Below are positions 3,001 through 9,000 of a stretch of DNA of 48,241 bases, piece by piece. Position numbers: made by a program. The stretch lies in the IMG/VR virus record IMGVR_UViG_2923307698_000003; one strand, written 5' to 3'. How positions within the stretch are numbered: position 1 is the stretch's first letter; each line of letters begins with the position of its first letter. The stretch comes from a virus (lineage: Duplodnaviria; Heunggongvirae; Uroviricota; Caudoviricetes).

Positions 3001-6000
3001 TGTTCAGTTGTATCCGGTTCCACTGCTTCAGTCGTTGCCTGTTCATCTGCCATTGCGCCAGATGGCTGCGGTTTTTCTTCATCATCCTGTTTTCCTTCTT
3101 TTGTTACACGCTGCGGCATTGGAGCAGAGGAGCGACCGCAGGCAATATCCACGATTTCTGGATCAGGGTTGGCATGGTCGGTTTCGGTCAGTACTTTGTT
3201 CAGATATTCGGTAACACGGTGGGGAGTAGCCTCGATACCAATTGGTGCTTCTTTCACGGACGCAACCACTATCGCGCGGGAATAATCCAGGTGACCAGGC
3301 ATGGCGATGAATTTGTCACGAAAAACAGAAAAGGGCGGCTTATTCTCTGAAACGATTTCTTCAATGCGTTTGGCGTGTGCCGGATGTGGATTGTAAATAT
3401 CGATGTCCATTGAACGGGCCAGAACGCCAGCGGCAACGTCACGTTCCACTGACGCATTATCGTGGACAAAACCTTCACCGCGATCGGTAAGAATTCCTCC
3501 GCCAGCATTAGCGCCGGATGGCGTGCGGCTGATGCGTAAAACACGATTTCCTTTCATCCACTCTTTTGTCAGCAGACCTCGATCGGTATAGTCAGCGTCC
3601 AGGTATGCTTCGAAAAAAGCAGTCATTAACCCCAGACTGGAATTAACGGGATTAGGGAAAACTTTGTCTGTGTCGCGTACCAGTTTGTGAAGGTCGCGAA
3701 TCTCCAGCGGGTCGAGCAGCTTTGTGTTGTGGGAAATAGCCAGGGCAGTAACAGCAGGCAGTTCTTCAGCTCGTGCGATATGTAATGCCTGAAGTTCTTC
3801 CCGTGAAACGTGCGTTACCGGTTTTTCGCTGCCATGTTGCGCAAGCCAGCGAATGGGCAGTTCCTGACCGGAAATCGGCAGGAGCATATTATCCTCAATC
3901 TCAGCCATGTCTTCGCCATTGACGTTGGTATTGTCAGTGCTGGCTGGTTTGTCCTGAACTGAGGGGGAAGGCGCTATAAATATCATTGTGATGCCATCTT
4001 CTCCGCCTTTTTCATAGCGGTTGCAGAATTCAGTATCGAACACACCTTCAGGCGGCAGGTCATTAACAATGGGCAAATTCACGCGAACAGGTTTTTTGAA
4101 ATCCTCTTCGTCAAATCCAGCATCGTCCATTGCGACAACACCCCGTGATATTGCAACCGATAATTTTTTTGCTGTGCGCCAGTAAAAACCGCCTTTAATC
4201 CCAAGGCGTTTTCTGACTTTGTCATTTTTGGCTTCGTAATACAGTGCAATTTCTTCTTTATCAGTGCTCATTGATAAACCTCATAACTATTTTAAGGTTG
4301 TACGAATCCCTGCTATTGCTGGCATGCTTAATCAACGGGTATGGCGTTAATACGGCTGGCGGGTTATCCAGCCGGTATTTCGTTATTCAGGTACAGCGAT
4401 ACTTTGTTTAACGGGAGACATTCACCGGAAATTTTTTGCTCGTCTCTTGCCTGATGGCAGGATTCTTTACTGGCATAAATTCCGGTAATCACATTCTGTG
4501 GCTCACCTGTTATAAGAAAAACCGTCATCATCAGTGCAAACGCTGAACTCACTGCTGCCCTCCGAAAATGCCAAGTTCAAGAAGGGCAATTCTGGAGAGT
4601 ATGGAATTATCATTGAGAAGATAAGGCTCATATTTTCTCATCCTGATGGCGTCTTCAGTAAACTCCCGGTTACTGAGCAGAATACCAATATTAAAACACC
4701 CTTCAGACGTATTAACGTTTGGTAATAACGTTTCCATTATCGCGTCCTCAACAATGAATTTTGTGATGCAGTGCCTGGTGCCTCCAGGTGACGTTAACCA
4801 GTTAACAATTAACGCCGGATACAGAGAATCCACCCATAACACTGTTTTTGGTTTTAACTGTTCCGCGTGCGCTTAGCCGCATTCACCGCATCACAAAATT
4901 CACTTTAAAAAGGGCGGCAGAGCAGCCACGGAGTAAAACTGATACCGCCAAACGTCACCAGAAAATTGATAACAGAGGGCGTTGCAGCGGGGTTGTCACT
5001 TAAGCGTATGGTCAACCTGACAACCCGGTGTCCTCAATGGGGAAGGAATAACCCCGCCATACTTACCGCCGCGCCATTTCGCGGAGTGCCACAACCGGAA
5101 GCGCACGTTCGAAGAAATCTAACGACAAGCCTTCTAAGGGAAAGAGCTTCGCCGTACGCTTTCGCGTTATGCACTGACTTTTCAGGGAAATATCCTTTCA
5201 GTAAACTGTCAGTACCGGATTCTTATCCGTGTCCGGCGCACGACCACACGTGACAGCGTGTTGGTCTCCATTTTTAACCCAGAACCTCAATGGAGGATAA
5301 AATGCCAAACAAAAAAAGAAATCCGCTTATTGAAAAACAGATTGAATGCCTGGTAAATCAACTCAGGCAATCAGGGTTATTAAAAACTCATTCAGAGTTG
5401 AGGCTCACAGAATCAGCATTCGACGATAAATTAAATAATGTCCTTTATAATGGCATTATTGATTTTAATCGTTCTGTTGGTCGCCGCGGCCCTGCTGGTG
5501 TTTCCTTATAATTACCAGTCAATCCAGAGTGGACCGTGTTCAGCGTAAATATAACTGTACACATCCAGATTATATTTGTGGTCTGTTAAGAACAGGCCGC
5601 AAATACATGCCGAAGCTTCCAGTGCAGCGGCTCTGTTACTGAATAACCATGTAGCAACATTCCAGCGTTTTTCTGCATCCCAGTCTTTCTCAAGGCCTGA
5701 TACCATGAAGAAACCGTTAGTGTTGCCATCAAATAATTCTGTTTCCAAATTTTTAAGCAATGCCTGATGGACTCTTGCCAGGTATTCCGCCGGAATTTCG
5801 CCACGAATTCTGATGAGATTGTCATAAACAAACATGTTCCCCGCATATGGCGATTTTTCTTTCTTGTTTTTTAAACCAGCATCATGAGCAAACTGATCAA
5901 TTTCTTCTTCCGTTGGTTTCGTATTGATGTTTTGCGCTGTCGTTTCTGCAATTTTATTTGCCACACTCTCTGAGTCGTGTTTATTTATAGACGCACAGAA

Positions 6001-9000
6001 ATACAATCCGGTAAACGCATCGCGCACATTACGAGCCATATTATCAGTGTCTTTTTTCGTTACCGATTCCAATTCAAGTTCGTTCAGACGATGACGAAGT
6101 GTGTGTGCTGCAATCTCCTGGATTGAAGGAGGTAAATCTTTAAATTCCATCGTCAACCTCATCAGTCAGTGTTTCTGGCTAACCAGCGACGCGCGCCAGC
6201 TTCAGTTTTAAACGTTTTGCTTCTGGTATACGTCATCGCGGTAAACGTGCCGTCCTGATTGGGAAACACGCCACATACCAGAGATTCGTTGTTGCCAAGA
6301 TCGATAGTATCCATGCTGACCTCATTTCCCCTTAACGCCGGGGTAGCGGAACAAAAACCTGCTGCATAGTTATTAAAGTTGAACCCTGCCGTCATGTTCT
6401 TACGCCTCGGGCTGGCTACTTAACCCCTGACCACTGCCTGGTAACTCGAAGTATTGCCCTGCATTCTGTGGGGCGGGGTGGGTTGGTATGAAAAGAAGGA
6501 TACCCATAGGTATTTAAAAAGTAAATACCCATGGGTAAATTTTTGCGGTGTCTTAACTGGTGACTAGTTGTTTGGTGAGCTATGATGCGTTTTGTGCTTT
6601 CTTTTTACGGATTTCTTCGTAGATCATATTGTAATACTGTTTTTTCTCTTCAAGAGTTTTTAATAATTTATCCGCTTCACTTTCTGGCAGTTCGTCTAAG
6701 AGATCTAAAAAAATACGTTGTCGTGGCGTTAGAACCCTTGTTTCATAACTGGAGGCTGTGTTCGTTGATGATGAAACGATACCATCCATCCATCCCCGGG
6801 GTAACCCAAAGGACTCTTCGATAATCTCCACCATATCATCAGCGATCCGTTTTTTTCCCTTTTTCCCCTCTGGGTACAACATTCTTGATACATAAGAAGG
6901 CTCGCGCCCGATCTTTCTGGCCACGTTAACCGCTTTACCATCGCATTTCTCATCACGAATTTTGATGAGTTGCTGTCGTCTAAATTCATATTTGTCCATA
7001 GGTAAATAATAGATGCGATTACCGCAAGGTAAACAACCTGTGGGTATTGACTTTTGTTTACCTGTGGGTATTCTTTGCTGTGTTTACTAAGGAGTAGCTA
7101 TGGAAGAATTAAGAATATTTCTCAATTCTCTTTCGTCAGATGAACAGCGTATGTTTGCATGTGAGTGTGGTACCAGCATCGGTTATCTAAGAAAGGCATT
7201 GAGTAAAGGTCAAGTGTTAGGGGCATCGTTATGTGTCCTTATTGAGCGAGCCAGTAATGGTGAAGTTACACGTCAGCAACTAAGGCCTTTTGATTGGATG
7301 AATATTTGGCCCGAGCTGGAAGATACCAAAACGTTAACACAACCACTTTCTAGGAGCTTGATTCATGAAAATCAAGCATGAACACATCCGCATGGCGATG
7401 AATGCCTGGGCGCGTCCTGATGGCGAAAAAGTTCCAGCAGCTGGAATAACCCAGGCTTATTTTGAGTTGGGTATGACGTTCCCAGAACTGTATGACGACA
7501 GCCATCCGGAAGCCCTGGCTCGCAATACCCAGAAAATTTTCCGCTGGGTAGAGAAAGACACCCCTGATGCTGTTGAAAAAATGCAGGCTCTGTTACCGGC
7601 GATCGAAAAGGCGATGCCGCCTTTGCTGGTGGCCCGTATGCGCAGCCACAGTTCTGAATATTACCGTGAGATCGTCGAACGGAGGGATCGGCTGGTGAAG
7701 GATGTCGATGATTTTGTTGCGTCAGCGGTTGTTTTGTATGACCAGATGAATCGCGGCGGCCCGGCAGGGAATGCTGTGGTGATGCACTAAAAGCACGGTG
7801 TTCGGGGGTTTTATGAGCAGCAAGCTTCATGGTCTTGTCTGGGAAGGGTGCGCCTTCACCGGCATGATCTTATCCAGGGTGGCGGTTATGGCCCGTCTTG
7901 CAGACTACAGCAATGACGAGGGCGTGTCATGGCCTGCCATTGAAACTATCCGGCGTCAGATCGGTGCAAGAAGTGAATCCACAGTGAAATCGGCTATTGC
8001 AGAACTGGCGAAAGAGGGCTGGCTGACGAAGGAAGAGCGTAAGGTCGGTGGGCGTAACGTAAGCAATATCTATCGGCTTAATGTGGAAAAACTTGAAGCA
8101 GCTGCAGCGGCGGCGCGTGAGGCATATAAACCAAAAAGAAAAATTAGCCAGGCAAAAAATGACCCGTCAAATATTGCCCCCTCAACGGTTGGCCCGTCAA
8201 ATGTTGATGGATCAACTGTTGATAAAAAACTGCGGATTAGGGGGGCGATGATTGACCCCGATCCGTCAGTATTAAAACCTGATCCGTCAGATAAAAGATC
8301 TTCTTGTCCGGACGTTTCACTGCCGGACGAAAAACAATCATCACCAGTTGAGCGATTTCTGGAGAAACACCCGGATGCGCATACCTGGAATGTACCGAAG
8401 CGACAGTGGGGAACCCGGGAGGATTTGACGTGTGCACAGTGGATCTGGGGACGGGTTGTTGCGTTGTATGAACAGGCCGCCAGTGATGATGGGGAGGTAT
8501 CACGCCCCAGAGAGCCTAACTGGACGACCTGGGCGAATGATGTGCGCATGATGCGTATGCTGGATGGACGTAGTCACCGACAGATTTGTGAAATGTTTGG
8601 GCGTGTTCAACGGGATTCGTTCTGGGTAAAAAACATCATGAGTCCGGCAAAACTCCGGGAAAAATGGGATGAGCTGGTTATTCGCCTGGGGCGTTCGCCC
8701 GCGCAGCGTTGCGTGAATCATATTTCTGAACCGGATACCGAAATTCCGCCGGGGTTCAGGGGGTAGCGCATCATGAAAAACATTACGTCAGGTGGTGTTC
8801 TGGCAAGAATCAGCAGATTTGTGCCGCAGGATGCAATCCCTCCGTACCGTACGGTGGCGGAGTGGCGGGAATGGCAGCTTGCTGAAGGGCGTAAGCGAAG
8901 CGAGGAGGTTAATCGTCTGAATCATCAGACGCGGGTTGAAAAAATCATTAACCGCTCCGGTATCCAGCCGCTTCACCGGAAGTGTACGTTCTGTAACTAC

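What the first reader, a model, noticed from the sequence alone, without database searches (positions are those of the whole stretch)
5512..6537. Two-gene early-left operon directly under the OL-like operators
ORFs 6162..6395 (77 aa) and 5512..6162 (216 aa) overlap as TGATG and begin about 100 bp downstream of the palindromic operators TACCCATGGGTA and TACCCATAGGTA with an embedded TTTACC-17-TAAATA promoter. This is the position where lambdoid phages place host-takeover, anti-recombination or anti-defence functions, yet neither protein shows a motif I can assign.
Basis: partly seen in the sequence, partly recalled or inferred. Interest (0 to 1): 0.6.

Follow-up and report, generated by a model that had tools for sequence, protein, structure and literature searches.

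The report
Prophage early-left operon head, new leader RNA
The two ORFs are the first genes of a well-known type of repressor-controlled prophage operon (the dicBF/Rac type) and belong to uncharacterised protein families, but the untranslated leader in front of them is a conserved, folded RNA that sits unannotated in about two thirds of E. coli genomes, including K-12.

Summary
The ORFs and operators exist, but this is not a self-contained two-gene operon. It is the promoter-proximal end of the early-left (pL) operon of a Rac/Qin-type lambdoid prophage: repressor | OL operators and promoter | leader | ydfA (DUF1391) | orf212 | (convergent orf69) | DicF sRNA | dicB | ydfD | exonuclease | xis | int.

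The 77-aa ORF is a short upstream ORF fused in frame to a 50-aa YdfA core. The 216-aa ORF most likely starts at its fifth codon (212 aa), so the TGATG overlap is incidental.

orf212 is modular. Its N-terminal helical domain is shared with many short early-left proteins. Its C-terminal alpha/beta sandwich is shared with Salmonella early proteins. No sequence or fold match assigns a function, and there is no Kil, Gam or SieB homology.

The unexpected result is the ~100-nt leader (6388-6489, minus strand): a 57-nt hairpin with an invariant apical loop and an invariant tail carrying a ribosome-binding site and AUG. Compensatory changes support the hairpin across Escherichia, Serratia, Pectobacterium, Arsenophonus and Symbiopectobacterium prophages. 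It is absent from Rfam, lambda and HK022. It is present in 3698 of 5426 complete E. coli genomes, including K-12 Rac. Its function is unknown; cis control of early-left expression is my best guess.

The parts
6580..6999 (-). Prophage repressor gene (139 aa), co-oriented with the early-left operon
   Evidence: PHROG 5736 'transcriptional regulator', E 6.4e-70. Weak match to the C-terminal part of DicA, NF007257, E 1.9e-5, below cut-off. Flanked on both sides by the operator motif.
6526..6537 (.). Operator OL2, perfect palindrome TACCCATGGGTA
   Evidence: The motif occurs at four sites in the whole window, all next to the repressor gene; 0 of 100 shuffles reach the count.
6501..6512 (.). Operator OL1, TACCCATAGGTA
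   Evidence: With OL2 it also forms a 16-bp hairpin followed by a T-rich run on the minus strand. The scan lists it as terminator-like.
7035..7070 (.). OR region with two further operator copies (7035-7046, 7059-7070), overlapping divergent promoter-like sites
   Evidence: for the operators. for the promoter-like sites: minus strand 7033->7006 TTTACC-16-TATTAT, plus strand 7047-7074 TTGACT-16-TATTCT.
6497..6525 (-). Favoured pL candidate: -35 TTTACT (6525->6520), 17 nt, -10 TATCCT (6502->6497); predicted +1 near 6489/6490
   Evidence: Read from the sequence. Placement is by analogy with relatives, whose -10 lies about 7 nt before the conserved 5' end of the leader. Not found by the consensus scan. 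Inferred, not shown.
6511..6539 (-).
   Evidence: Present in the sequence. The -10 matches the consensus at 3 of 6 positions. Not listed by the scan.
6388..6489 (-). Conserved structured leader RNA: 10-nt 5' single strand, 57-nt hairpin, invariant tail UAAGUAGCCAGCCYGAGGC, then GAACAUGACGGC
   Evidence: Covariance model R1: 77.8 bits, E about 1e-16, the only copy in the window. Compensatory changes. RNAalifold agrees. No Rfam family.
6423..6479 (-). The hairpin: outer stems 6479-6468 with 6434-6423, 5' bulge AGAA 6467-6464, inner stem 6463-6457 with 6441-6435, apical loop CAAUACUUCGAGUUA 6456->6442
   Evidence: Single-sequence folds of about 35 relatives give the same architecture. 18 of 22 pairs show changes on both sides.
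6162..6395 (-). 77-aa ORF: leader mini-ORF (AUG 6395) fused in frame to ydfA
   Evidence: In Rac-type and Evi-type relatives the same AUG opens an 18- or 20-codon ORF that stops just before the ribosome-binding site of the next gene. In other genera it is 4-36 codons. The extension is conserved only at MTAG and ATPALRGNEV.
6162..6314 (-). ydfA/ydaF homologue, DUF1391 core (50 aa from Met28)
   Evidence: Pfam PF07151, E 4.6e-29, 100.3 bits against a cut-off of 27.3, residues 29-75. PGAP 'DUF1391 family protein'. 88% identical to K-12 YdfA.
5512..6150 (-). orf212: modular early protein (PHROG 2151, 'Ybl81')
   Evidence: PHROG 2151, E 1.9e-147. Family confined to Escherichia and Salmonella. N-domain (residues 1 to about 58) is shared with proteins of 42-201 aa; C-domain (about 96-212) is shared with Salmonella proteins. 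C-domain model pLDDT 81.6.
5302..5511 (+). orf69: convergent small ORF whose stop codon abuts that of orf212
   Evidence: PHROG 4274, E 1.4e-51. PGAP 'hypothetical protein'. Stays open in copies 84-86% identical, with substitutions 13/7/7 at codon positions 3/1/2. Travels with the orf212 C-domain into a different operon context. Coding status not settled.
4912..4963 (-). DicF sRNA with its intrinsic terminator (stem 4929->4914)
   Evidence: Rfam RF00039, 75 bits against a gathering score of 48. Terminator-like site. Near-identical to the K-12 dicF region.
4549..4737 (-). dicB (62 aa as called by PGAP)
   Evidence: Pfam DicB, E 1.2e-34. PGAP 'cell division inhibition protein DicB'.
4364..4552 (-). 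ydfD-like DUF1482 gene
   Evidence: Pfam PF07358, E 1.8e-14.

Best explanation
**What it is.** The finding covers the promoter-proximal end of the repressor-controlled early-left (pL) operon of a Rac/Qin-type lambdoid prophage. This is the operon type known in E. coli K-12 as the dicBF operon (Qin) and the racR-proximal operon (Rac).

**Shown.**
- Four copies of a 12-bp palindrome bracket the repressor gene. Two of them overlap the leftward promoter region.
- Downstream come, in order, a conserved folded leader RNA, a DUF1391 (YdfA/YdaF) gene, a modular 212-aa gene, DicF, dicB, ydfD, an exonuclease gene, xis and int.

**Inferred.**
1. In the lysogen the repressor occupies OL1 and OL2 and silences the operon.
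2. On derepression, transcription starts near 6490.
3. The first ~100 nt fold into a 57-nt hairpin, followed by an invariant single-stranded tail that carries a GAGG ribosome-binding site and an AUG.
4. I think this module most likely acts in cis. It would load a ribosome on a mini-ORF at the very 5' end of the transcript. That would set how much of the operon is expressed: translation of the first cistron, protection of the untranslated stretches from Rho, and/or mRNA stability. The conserved apical loop would be the contact for a host or phage factor.
5. In this phage the mini-ORF is fused to ydfA by one extra C.

**The proteins.** YdfA (50-aa core) and orf212 are non-essential accessory early proteins occupying a cassette slot that differs from phage to phage. 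orf212 combines an N-terminal helical domain used by many early-left proteins with a C-terminal alpha/beta sandwich. I take it to be a protein-binding modulator of a host or defence target made early in lytic growth. That last step is a guess.
For: **Operon identity**
- Operators.
- Gene content: Pfam DUF1391, DicB, DUF1482 and YdaT hits, plus a weak YdaS hit below cut-off; Rfam DicF; PGAP annotation of the identical O145 prophage.
- Same gene order in K-12 Qin and in the phages Tritos and vB_EcoS-689R5, deposited as phage genome records.
- Literature on the dicBF operon (PMC5069750).
- In Rac, ydaF/ydaG rise about 40-fold when RacR falls (PMC6765115 and PMC11014345).

**Leader RNA**
- The block is near-identical in phages whose operators, promoters and first genes differ.
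- 42 further copies lie in other Enterobacterales genera, always after a co-oriented repressor gene.
- The hairpin has 76.5% (hand-guided alignment) and 78.4% (model alignment) of cells paired, against 20-47% when partners are slid. 18 of 22 pairs change on both sides. 0 of 500 shuffles reach this.
- RNAalifold finds the same nesting on its own.
- One copy per prophage. Present in K-12 Rac and in 3698 of 5426 E. coli genomes.
- An AUG with GAGG 9 nt upstream is nearly invariant, while the ORF behind it is 4-36 codons or fused.

**Cassette nature of the genes**
- K-12 has the unrelated YdfB and YdfC in the slot.
- STEC316 has ydfA-ydfB-ydfC followed by a truncated orf212 plus orf69.
- Phage Evi has another MEFKDLP-domain protein after ydfC.

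**Domain modularity of orf212:**

**No toxicity of the ydfA-type genes in K-12:**
Against: - No transcript data were available, so neither promoter candidate, the +1 nor read-through to dicB is shown for this prophage.
- Both promoter candidates are weak matches (8 of 12 or fewer) and the scan lists neither.
- The window's own leader does not fold better than shuffles (z = +1.0). Support for the structure comes only from comparison.
- Both alignments used for pair counting were fitted to the proposed structure, which biases them towards it.
- Nothing tested here says what the leader does. The ribosome-loading and Rho-shielding idea rests on position and on the conserved SD-AUG alone.
- Three copies in symbiont genomes lack the AUG.
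Confidence: 0.8

Rival explanations
1. The two ORFs are a self-contained, translationally coupled two-gene unit. Its products carry out host takeover, anti-recombination or anti-defence, as lambda's pL-proximal genes do.
For: - Position at the head of pL.
- No homology that would assign another role.
- orf212 sits in a variable cassette slot and is domain-shuffled, which is typical of accessory and counter-defence genes.
- Its C-domain also occurs in the early operon of an unrelated Salmonella prophage, right after Cox.
Against: - The unit continues into DicF, dicB, ydfD and exo.
- The family-wide start MEFKDLP removes the TGATG coupling.
- No PADLOC hit; no anti-defence library was available.
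- The K-12 ydfA homologue shows no growth phenotype when induced.
- ydfA and orf212 are not linked: ydfA occurs with YdfB/YdfC or with YdaG instead.
Confidence: 0.2
2. orf212 and the convergent orf69 form an inserted two-gene cassette with its own logic, such as a moron, a toxin-antitoxin-like pair or a lysogen-expressed exclusion module. orf69 would be expressed in the lysogen against the direction of pL.
For: - The two genes abut stop to stop.
- They move together: STEC316 carries orf69 plus an N-terminally truncated orf212 downstream of ydfA-ydfB-ydfC.
- Homology to K-12 Qin resumes only just left of orf69.
- orf69 stays open at 84-86% identity, with most substitutions at third positions.
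Against: - No convincing promoter for orf69. The only promoter-like site overlaps its start codon.
- The third-position excess (13/7/7) is not significant and comes from essentially one diverged lineage.
- No PADLOC, Pfam or NCBIfam hit for either protein.
- No tblastn match to orf69 in 50,697 phage records.
- Adjacency alone explains the co-transfer.
Confidence: 0.15
3. The leader hairpin is an N-independent processive antiterminator. It would work like the put RNAs of HK022: the nascent RNA binds the transcribing polymerase and carries it through the DicF terminator and others.
For: - This phage has no boxA-like sequence anywhere in the window, and no N-like gene was seen in the early-left region.
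- The operon nevertheless contains an intrinsic terminator at DicF upstream of dicB, exo, xis and int.
- The element is the first thing transcribed.
- Its loop and bulge are conserved, as expected for a protein contact.
Against: - The model finds nothing in HK022.
- There is one copy per prophage and none behind pR, whereas put and nut sites serve both arms.
- In Arsenophonus and Symbiopectobacterium prophages the element coexists with boxA, a boxB-like hairpin and Arg-rich N-like proteins. Those phages would not need it for antitermination.
Confidence: 0.15
4. The leader is conserved only because it is a recombination joint that spreads with flanking modules, or because it is the DNA site of some protein. 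It would have no function as RNA.
For: - Within E. coli the block is 95-100% identical, consistent with recent exchange.
- The window's sequence alone does not fold unusually well.
Against: - Across genera the stems differ in sequence but keep pairing: P1 is ACCCC/GGGGU, GCAAC/GUUGC, GCUC/GGGC or GUCAUC/GAUGAC. Neither a DNA site nor hitch-hiking predicts this.
- The loop and tail stay invariant while both flanks are unrelated.
Confidence: 0.07

Closest known systems
dicBF operon of the Qin cryptic prophage, E. coli K-12 (dicA | ydfA ydfB ydfC dicF dicB ydfD)
   Same: - A repressor-controlled promoter next to the repressor gene.
- First gene ydfA (DUF1391, 88% identical core).
- A long untranslated stretch containing DicF that is near-identical.
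- Then dicB and ydfD.
   Different: - ydfB and ydfC are replaced by orf212 and the convergent orf69, which are not homologous to them.
- The repressor and operators are of another specificity.
- K-12 Qin lacks the structured leader: homology starts only 30 nt before the ydfA AUG, and the model finds nothing there.
racR-proximal early-left operon of the Rac prophage, E. coli K-12 (racR | ydaG ydaF ... kilR ... recE)
   Same: - The same structured leader (81.2 bits) between the repressor gene and the first gene.
- A DUF1391 gene (ydaF).
- YdaS- and YdaT-type genes to the right.
- An exonuclease VIII-type gene downstream.
   Different: - In Rac the leader mini-ORF is 18 codons and stops before ydaG. 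Here it is fused to ydfA.
- Rac carries sieB and kilR instead of orf212, DicF and dicB.
Lambda pL - nutL - N leader
   Same: - The same position and logic: operators, pL, a long leader, then early-left genes.
- Arsenophonus copies of the element sit in a leader that is recognisably lambda-like. They share AUCA(A/G)C..CACUG at the 5' end, CAUGAAGG, boxA CGCUCUUUAA, a boxB-like hairpin and UUUGGGGUGUGUGA.
   Different: - Lambda has no hairpin. The ~85-nt module reads as an insertion or deletion between CACUG and CAUGAAGG, and the model finds nothing in lambda.
- The window has no boxA and no N-like gene.
HK022 put RNAs, and the leader-derived immunity RNAs of P4 (CI RNA) and P1/P7 (C4)
   Same: All are structured RNAs encoded at the start of an early phage transcript that act without, or before, phage proteins. 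This comparison rests on established knowledge of those systems and is not a test.
   Different: - No match in HK022.
- One copy only.
- No sequence complementary to the loop or the tail elsewhere in the window beyond chance. The cis-antisense logic of P4 and P1 therefore has no support.
- Rfam, which holds the C4 family, gives no hit.

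Membership tests
DUF1391 (Pfam PF07151; YdfA/YdaF) | Match to the family profile above the curated gathering score | tested here: met
   100.3 bits against a cut-off of 27.3, E 4.6e-29, residues 29-75 on profile positions 1-47 of 48. The core is 88% identical to K-12 YdfA and to a Rac-type YdaF.
dicBF-type early-left operon | Promoter next to, and controlled by, the prophage repressor, upstream of ydfA | tested here: inconclusive
   Operators overlap both promoter candidates. Repression and the transcription start were not measurable here.
dicBF-type early-left operon | DicF sRNA and dicB downstream on the same strand | tested here: met
   DicF 75 bits at 4912-4963, minus strand. 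DicB Pfam E 1.2e-34. DUF1482/YdfD follows.
dicBF-type early-left operon | ydfB and ydfC between ydfA and dicF | tested here: not met
   orf212 has no similarity to K-12 YdfB or YdfC (negative scores). The slot holds different cassettes in different prophages.
   No such Pfam, PHROG or NCBIfam hit for either protein.
Known anti-phage defence proteins (PADLOC-DB) | Match to any defence-system profile | tested here: not met
   0 families at E up to 0.1 for ydfA, orf212, orf69 and the repressor.
Lambda N/nut antitermination | boxA (YGCUCUUUAAC-like) followed by a boxB hairpin in the leader; an Arg-rich N protein | tested here: not met
   No boxA with up to 1 mismatch anywhere in the window. Relatives in Arsenophonus and Symbiopectobacterium do have boxA, boxB and N-like proteins downstream of the element.
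HK022 put RNA | Sequence and structure similarity to putL/putR; one copy behind each early promoter | tested here: not met
   The model finds no significant match in the HK022 genome (best E 0.19, at an unrelated place). There is a single copy in the window.
Any Rfam 15 family (for the leader) | Covariance-model match | tested here: not met
   Nothing at gathering score. At E up to 10 there are only chance microRNA-type hits on the operator hairpin.
Phage head decoration protein (gpD/SHP), as annotated for ydfA in some phage records | Homology over the domain | tested here: not met
   Only a 19-residue local match (DGTFTAMTYTKSKTFKTEA against EGTETALTYYKSGTFATEA), E 0.04, to 1td0. The 'head-DNA stabilization protein D' label in ON470583 is not supported.

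The most novel reading that the evidence does not exclude
The ~100-nt pL leader (hairpin, invariant loop, invariant tail with SD-AUG) is a new class of cis-acting phage RNA. It would decide whether early-left transcripts of lambdoid prophages are completed. It could do this by recruiting a host factor or the ribosome to block Rho, or by modifying the polymerase. It would thereby gate expression of toxic prophage genes (kilR, dicB, DicF) in most E. coli strains, including K-12 Rac. There, NusG/Rho-dependent silencing of kilR is already known but its site is not (my own knowledge; PMC5793797 links kilR to NusG).
Probability: 0.25. Interest if true: 0.75.

Novelty: new variant of a known kind. 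Interest (0 to 1): 0.5.

Why it matters
**The ORFs themselves are ordinary.** They are one more DUF1391 gene and one more uncharacterised accessory gene at the head of a known prophage operon. It is still useful to know three things:
- The suspected host-killing functions lie downstream, in DicF and DicB.
- The longest-ORF gene models are probably wrong.
- The slot after ydfA is a cassette site where domain-shuffled early proteins are exchanged.

**The leader RNA is the part worth following.**
- It is a well-supported folded RNA.
- It is unannotated and absent from Rfam.
- It is present in about 68% of complete E. coli genomes, in up to six copies, and in prophages of at least five other genera of Enterobacterales.
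- It always sits at the very start of the transcript that carries toxic prophage genes.
- It is present in K-12 Rac (NC_000913.3 1,419,519-1,419,620), so it can be tested at once with standard strains and existing transcriptome, Rho and NusG data sets.

If it controls elongation, translation or stability, it would add a missing layer to how cryptic prophages keep kilR and dicB silent. It would also show how N-less lambdoid phages express their left arm.

Tried and rejected
**Protein searches that assigned no function**
- Pfam, NCBIfam and PADLOC for orf212 and orf69: no hits.
- PDB sequence searches with single sequences and with profiles: only noise, plus a 19-residue match of YdfA to the phage 21 head decoration protein. 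I reject that match as homology.
- Full-length orf212 model: too poor to use (pLDDT 63.5).
- The afdb50 fold library was not available.
- Exhaustive profile search: two giant proteins (2862 and 5212 aa) hit the N-domain repeatedly. Pfam shows only an odd F-actin-binding match, so I treat these as helical-repeat noise.
- Homology of orf212 to K-12 YdfB or YdfC: none.

**Tests on the leader that led nowhere**
- MAFFT plus RNAalifold on unguided sequences found only a 3-bp stem, because indels put the arms out of register. I then built a hand-guided alignment and, independently, a covariance-model alignment.
- A second copy behind pR: none.
- Similarity to HK022 put: none.
- Complementary targets for the loop or tail in the window, as in the P4 and P1 antisense systems: none beyond chance.
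- A loop-tail pseudoknot: the candidate AUAC/GUAU pairing does not covary (read).
- An antisense RNA from the plus strand: no terminator or promoter supports it.

**orf69**
- tblastn against phage records: no match.

**Literature**
- Searches for DUF1391, Ybl81, the tail sequence, ydaF/ydaG and conserved pL leader structures found no functional data and no description of the RNA.

Full report
**1. Check of the observation**

Both ORFs are present on the minus strand at the stated coordinates, and the junction reads TGATG. The two palindromes lie at 6501-6512 and 6526-6537. The motif TACCCAYRGGTA, with at most one mismatch, occurs at only four places in the 48-kb window: these two and 7035-7046 and 7059-7070. 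All four flank the 139-aa repressor gene at 6580-6999. Chance would give 0.5 strand-matches against the 6 seen, and no shuffle out of 100 reaches 6. The operator claim is therefore sound.

The consensus scan reports no promoter in this stretch. A second candidate, TTTACT (6525->6520)-17-TATCCT (6502->6497), lies 14 bp downstream. It would start transcription about 7 nt before the sequence block conserved among related phages. That matches the position of the strong TTGACA-17-TATAGT promoter of Rac-type phages relative to the same block. I favour it, but neither candidate is demonstrated.

**2. What the locus is**

The window is a lambdoid prophage 100% identical to one in E. coli O145:H28 and other EHEC strains, integrated next to rspB. 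From right to left the genes are:
- a YdaT-type cII-like gene and a YdaS-type cro-like gene, both on the plus strand;
- the repressor;
- the OL region;
- the 77-aa ORF, which is DUF1391 (Pfam E 4.6e-29);
- the large ORF;
- a small plus-strand ORF;
- DicF sRNA (Rfam 75 bits, 4912-4963);
- dicB;
- a DUF1482/YdfD gene;
- an 814-aa exonuclease gene, xis and int.

This is the layout of the dicBF operon of the Qin prophage of K-12 (dicA | ydfA ydfB ydfC dicF dicB ydfD). It is also the layout in the phages Tritos and vB_EcoS-689R5. The finding is therefore the head of a long, known type of operon and not a two-gene unit.

In K-12, inducing that operon is toxic because of DicF and DicB. With both deleted, expression of ydfA, ydfB, ydfC and ydfD does not inhibit growth (PMC5069750). 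In Rac, the equivalent ydaG and ydaF rise about 40-fold when RacR falls, and their functions are described as undetermined.

**3. The gene models**

*ydfA.*
- Pfam DUF1391 covers only residues 29-75 of the 77-aa ORF, and PGAP aa from Met28.
- In Rac-type phages the upstream AUG opens an 18-codon ORF that ends in the UAA of GCGUUAAGGGG, just before the ribosome-binding site of ydaG.
- In phage Evi the same AUG opens a 20-codon ORF ending in UGA at the same spot in another frame.
- In this window one extra C (CCCC for CCC) fuses it to ydfA.
- Across 77-aa homologues, the extension is conserved only at MTAG and ATPALRGNEV. Those are exactly the stretches whose nucleotides are conserved in the unfused relatives. 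The middle of the extension is unrelated between groups.
- The functional protein is therefore most likely the 50-aa core. The long form may also be made.

*orf212.*
- PGAP, PHROG 2151 (profile match from residue 5) and 23 aligned family members all start at MEFKDLP, with GAGG 6 nt upstream.
- The same N-terminus begins related proteins that follow other genes, for example in phage Evi.
- The TGATG overlap is thus an accident of the ribosome-binding region.

**4. The proteins**

*YdfA.* The family is confined to Escherichia, Shigella and Salmonella, and no member has a functional name. The only PDB signal is a 19-residue local match to the phage 21 head decoration protein (E 0.04). That explains a spurious 'head-DNA stabilization protein D' label in some phage records. 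I do not accept it as homology.

*orf212.* The family ('Ybl81', PHROG 2151) is confined to E. coli and a few Salmonella. It is modular.
- Residues 1-95 come in at least two unrelated-looking allelic forms joined to the same C-terminal part.
- An exhaustive profile search of 1.84 billion representatives found 54 proteins. Most are 42-201 aa long and share only the first ~55-90 residues. Two Salmonella proteins share only residues ~100-195.
- Those Salmonella proteins have a different N-terminal domain, with or without an HTH. They sit right after Cox in the early operon of an unrelated prophage.
- With the combined alignment, the C-domain (residues 96-212) models well (pLDDT 81.6, pTM 0.77). 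It is a beta-beta-alpha-beta-beta-alpha-beta two-layer sandwich.
- No Pfam, NCBIfam, PADLOC or PDB sequence hit exists.

*The slot.* The position between ydfA and dicF holds different cassettes in different prophages:
- YdfB and YdfC in K-12, which are not homologous to orf212;
- YdfB, YdfC and then a truncated orf212 plus orf69 in STEC316;
- other combinations in phage Evi.

**5. The leader RNA**

Aligning the region between the operators and ydfA from phages of different immunity showed a block of about 170 nt. It is more conserved than the ydfA coding sequence, although the operators and promoter upstream and the first gene downstream are unrelated.

A scan of one genome per species with the 19-nt tail found 46 stretches. 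About 42 of them are true copies. They lie in Arsenophonus, Symbiopectobacterium, Phlomobacter, Serratia, Pectobacterium, Superficieibacter, Escherichia and Shigella. Some Escherichia-type copies sit in contigs labelled as unrelated organisms. In all contexts inspected the order is cro-like gene, repressor gene, about 100 nt, element, early-left genes.

Single-sequence folds give the same architecture in nearly all copies:
- about 10 unpaired nucleotides;
- a 57-nt hairpin of three stacked stems with a 4-nt 5' bulge;
- an apical loop CAAUACNNCGAGUUA;
- an invariant tail UAAGUAGCCAGCCYGAGGC;
- 2-4 variable nucleotides;
- GAACAUGA(C/A)GGC.

The stems differ in sequence between genera but keep pairing. 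The outer stem, for example, is ACCCC/GGGGU here, GCAAC/GUUGC in Arsenophonus, GCUC/GGGC in Pectobacterium and GUCAUC/GAUGAC in a viral contig.

Pair counts:
- On a hand-guided alignment of 36 distinct sequences, 76.5% of cells pair, against 23-42% when the 3' partners are slid. 18 of 22 pairs show changes on both sides. No shuffle of 500 reaches the observed values.
- A covariance model built from it finds exactly one copy in the window (6388-6489, minus strand, 77.8 bits) and 86 copies in 90 sources, including 80 viral contigs. On that model-made alignment 78.4% of cells pair, against 20-47% slid, again with 18 of 22 pairs compensated.
- RNAalifold run on that alignment predicts the same nesting by itself.

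Caveats: both alignments were fitted to the structure, and the window's own sequence does not fold better than shuffles (z = +1.0).

Distribution and annotation:
- The element matches no Rfam family.
- It is not in HK022, in lambda pL or in K-12 Qin.
- It is in K-12 Rac between racR and ydaG (81.2 bits; NC_000913.3 1,419,519-1,419,620, where nothing is annotated).
- It is in 3698 of 5426 complete E. coli genomes, with up to six copies per genome, all without annotation.
- I found no description of it in the searchable literature.

**6. How it most likely works**

Shown: the anatomy above. The rest is inferred.

The repressor binding OL1 and OL2 should occlude either promoter candidate. After derepression the leader is the first RNA made. 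Its tail carries GAGG 9 nt before a nearly invariant AUG. The ORF behind that AUG is anything from 4 to 36 codons, or is fused to ydfA. So initiation, not the peptide, is what is conserved.

In Arsenophonus prophages the element precedes a leader that is recognisably lambda-like, with boxA, a boxB-like hairpin and the UUUGGGGUGUGUGA stretch. Lambda's own leader reads like the same sequence with the ~85-nt module missing between CACUG and CAUGAAGG. The module is thus an optional add-on at the 5' end of pL transcripts, whether or not the phage has N.

My best guess is a cis-acting module that puts a ribosome on the transcript at once. The conserved loop would contact a host or phage factor. Together these would tune translation of the first cistron, Rho access to the long untranslated stretches, and/or mRNA stability. 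I give about 0.35 to this specific mechanism, within about 0.6 for any cis-regulatory role.

A put-like antiterminator is the main alternative. It is attractive here because the window has no boxA and yet has the DicF terminator inside the operon. Against it stand the single copy and the coexistence with N/nut in other genera.

For YdfA and orf212 I can only say that they are dispensable, exchangeable early proteins. orf212's two independently shuffled domains suggest an adaptor plus a binding module. An anti-defence or host-modulating role is plausible but unsupported by any hit.

**7. Comparison with known systems, and novelty**

The operon is a member of the dicBF/Rac early-left kind. It meets the ydfA, DicF, dicB and ydfD features, fails the ydfB/ydfC feature, and its promoter control is inferred only. 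ydfA is a member of DUF1391. orf212 belongs to an uncharacterised PHROG. Tests for Kil/Gam/SieB, PADLOC defence proteins, N/nut, put and Rfam families were all negative.

Overall this is a new variant of a known kind: a known operon type with different cargo, plus a leader RNA that appears to be undescribed.

The ORFs alone would rate about 0.2 in interest. The leader raises the finding to about 0.5, because it is widespread, well supported by covariation, located at a regulatory choke point for toxic prophage genes, and directly testable in K-12.

**8. Dead ends** are listed under 'tried and rejected'.

Noticed in passing
window 5302-5511 (+), also 5438-5548 (+): A 69-aa plus-strand ORF (PHROG 4274) converges on orf212, and their stop codons abut directly. 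It stays open in copies 84-86% identical and moves together with the orf212 C-domain. An overlapping 36-codon ORF in another frame encodes a strongly hydrophobic peptide (MSFIMALLILIVLLVAAALLVFPYN...). That ORF also stays open but is less conserved.
   Followed up: partly
window 6501-6537 (-): OL1 and OL2 together form a 16-bp inverted repeat followed by TCCTTCTTTT on the minus strand. The scan lists it as terminator-like. It could end the repressor transcript just before pL, so the operators may double as a terminator.
   Followed up: no
whole window: There is no boxA-like sequence (YGCTCTTTAAC, up to 1 mismatch) anywhere in the window, and no N-like Arg-rich gene was seen in the early-left region. 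Yet the left operon contains the DicF intrinsic terminator upstream of dicB, exo, xis and int. How read-through is achieved is open.
   Followed up: partly
L179 (lambda 35,438-35,582) against L036 4370-4580: Lambda's pL leader and the Arsenophonus prophage leaders share the 5' end, CAUGAAGG, boxA, a boxB-like hairpin and UUUGGGGUGUGUGA. Lambda lacks only the ~85-nt hairpin-plus-tail module. Lambda's AUGAAGG opens a 10-codon ORF that runs through boxA into boxB.
   Followed up: partly
L056 5001-5663 and proteins P0153, P0141, P0174-P0291: Salmonella prophages carry a second modular family. A shared N-terminal domain (MFNVKRNG..VEITDIP) is joined to an HTH, to the orf212-type C-domain, to both, or to other tails. 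The example inspected sits right after Cox in an early operon.
   Followed up: partly
L180 1906-2003 (K-12 Rac, NC_000913.3 1,418,405-1,418,502): RefSeq annotates a small RNA, KilS, just upstream of kilR in the same Rac early-left operon that starts with the leader element. I found no paper on it in the library.
   Followed up: no
window 12317-12492 (+), 17018-17247 (+), 18020-18275: Other RNA genes in the prophage: a hok/sok-type Sok antitoxin RNA (118.5 bits), two tRNA genes, STnc100 (142.7 bits) and, abutting it on the opposite strand, the anti-sRNA AgvB (96.5 bits).
   Followed up: no
L009 and L036 (Arsenophonus), L014-L054 (Symbiopectobacterium): Insect-symbiont genomes carry many copies of the leader element: at least 8 in S. 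purcellii, and two within 2.7 kb in some Arsenophonus contigs. Each copy sits next to a repressor gene, which suggests arrays of prophage immunity-region remnants. A few copies have lost the AUG.
   Followed up: partly
window 4549-4842 (-): The longest ORF over dicB is 97 aa from a GTG. Pfam DicB covers only its last 62 residues, and PGAP aa. This is another case where the longest ORF overstates the gene.
   Followed up: no
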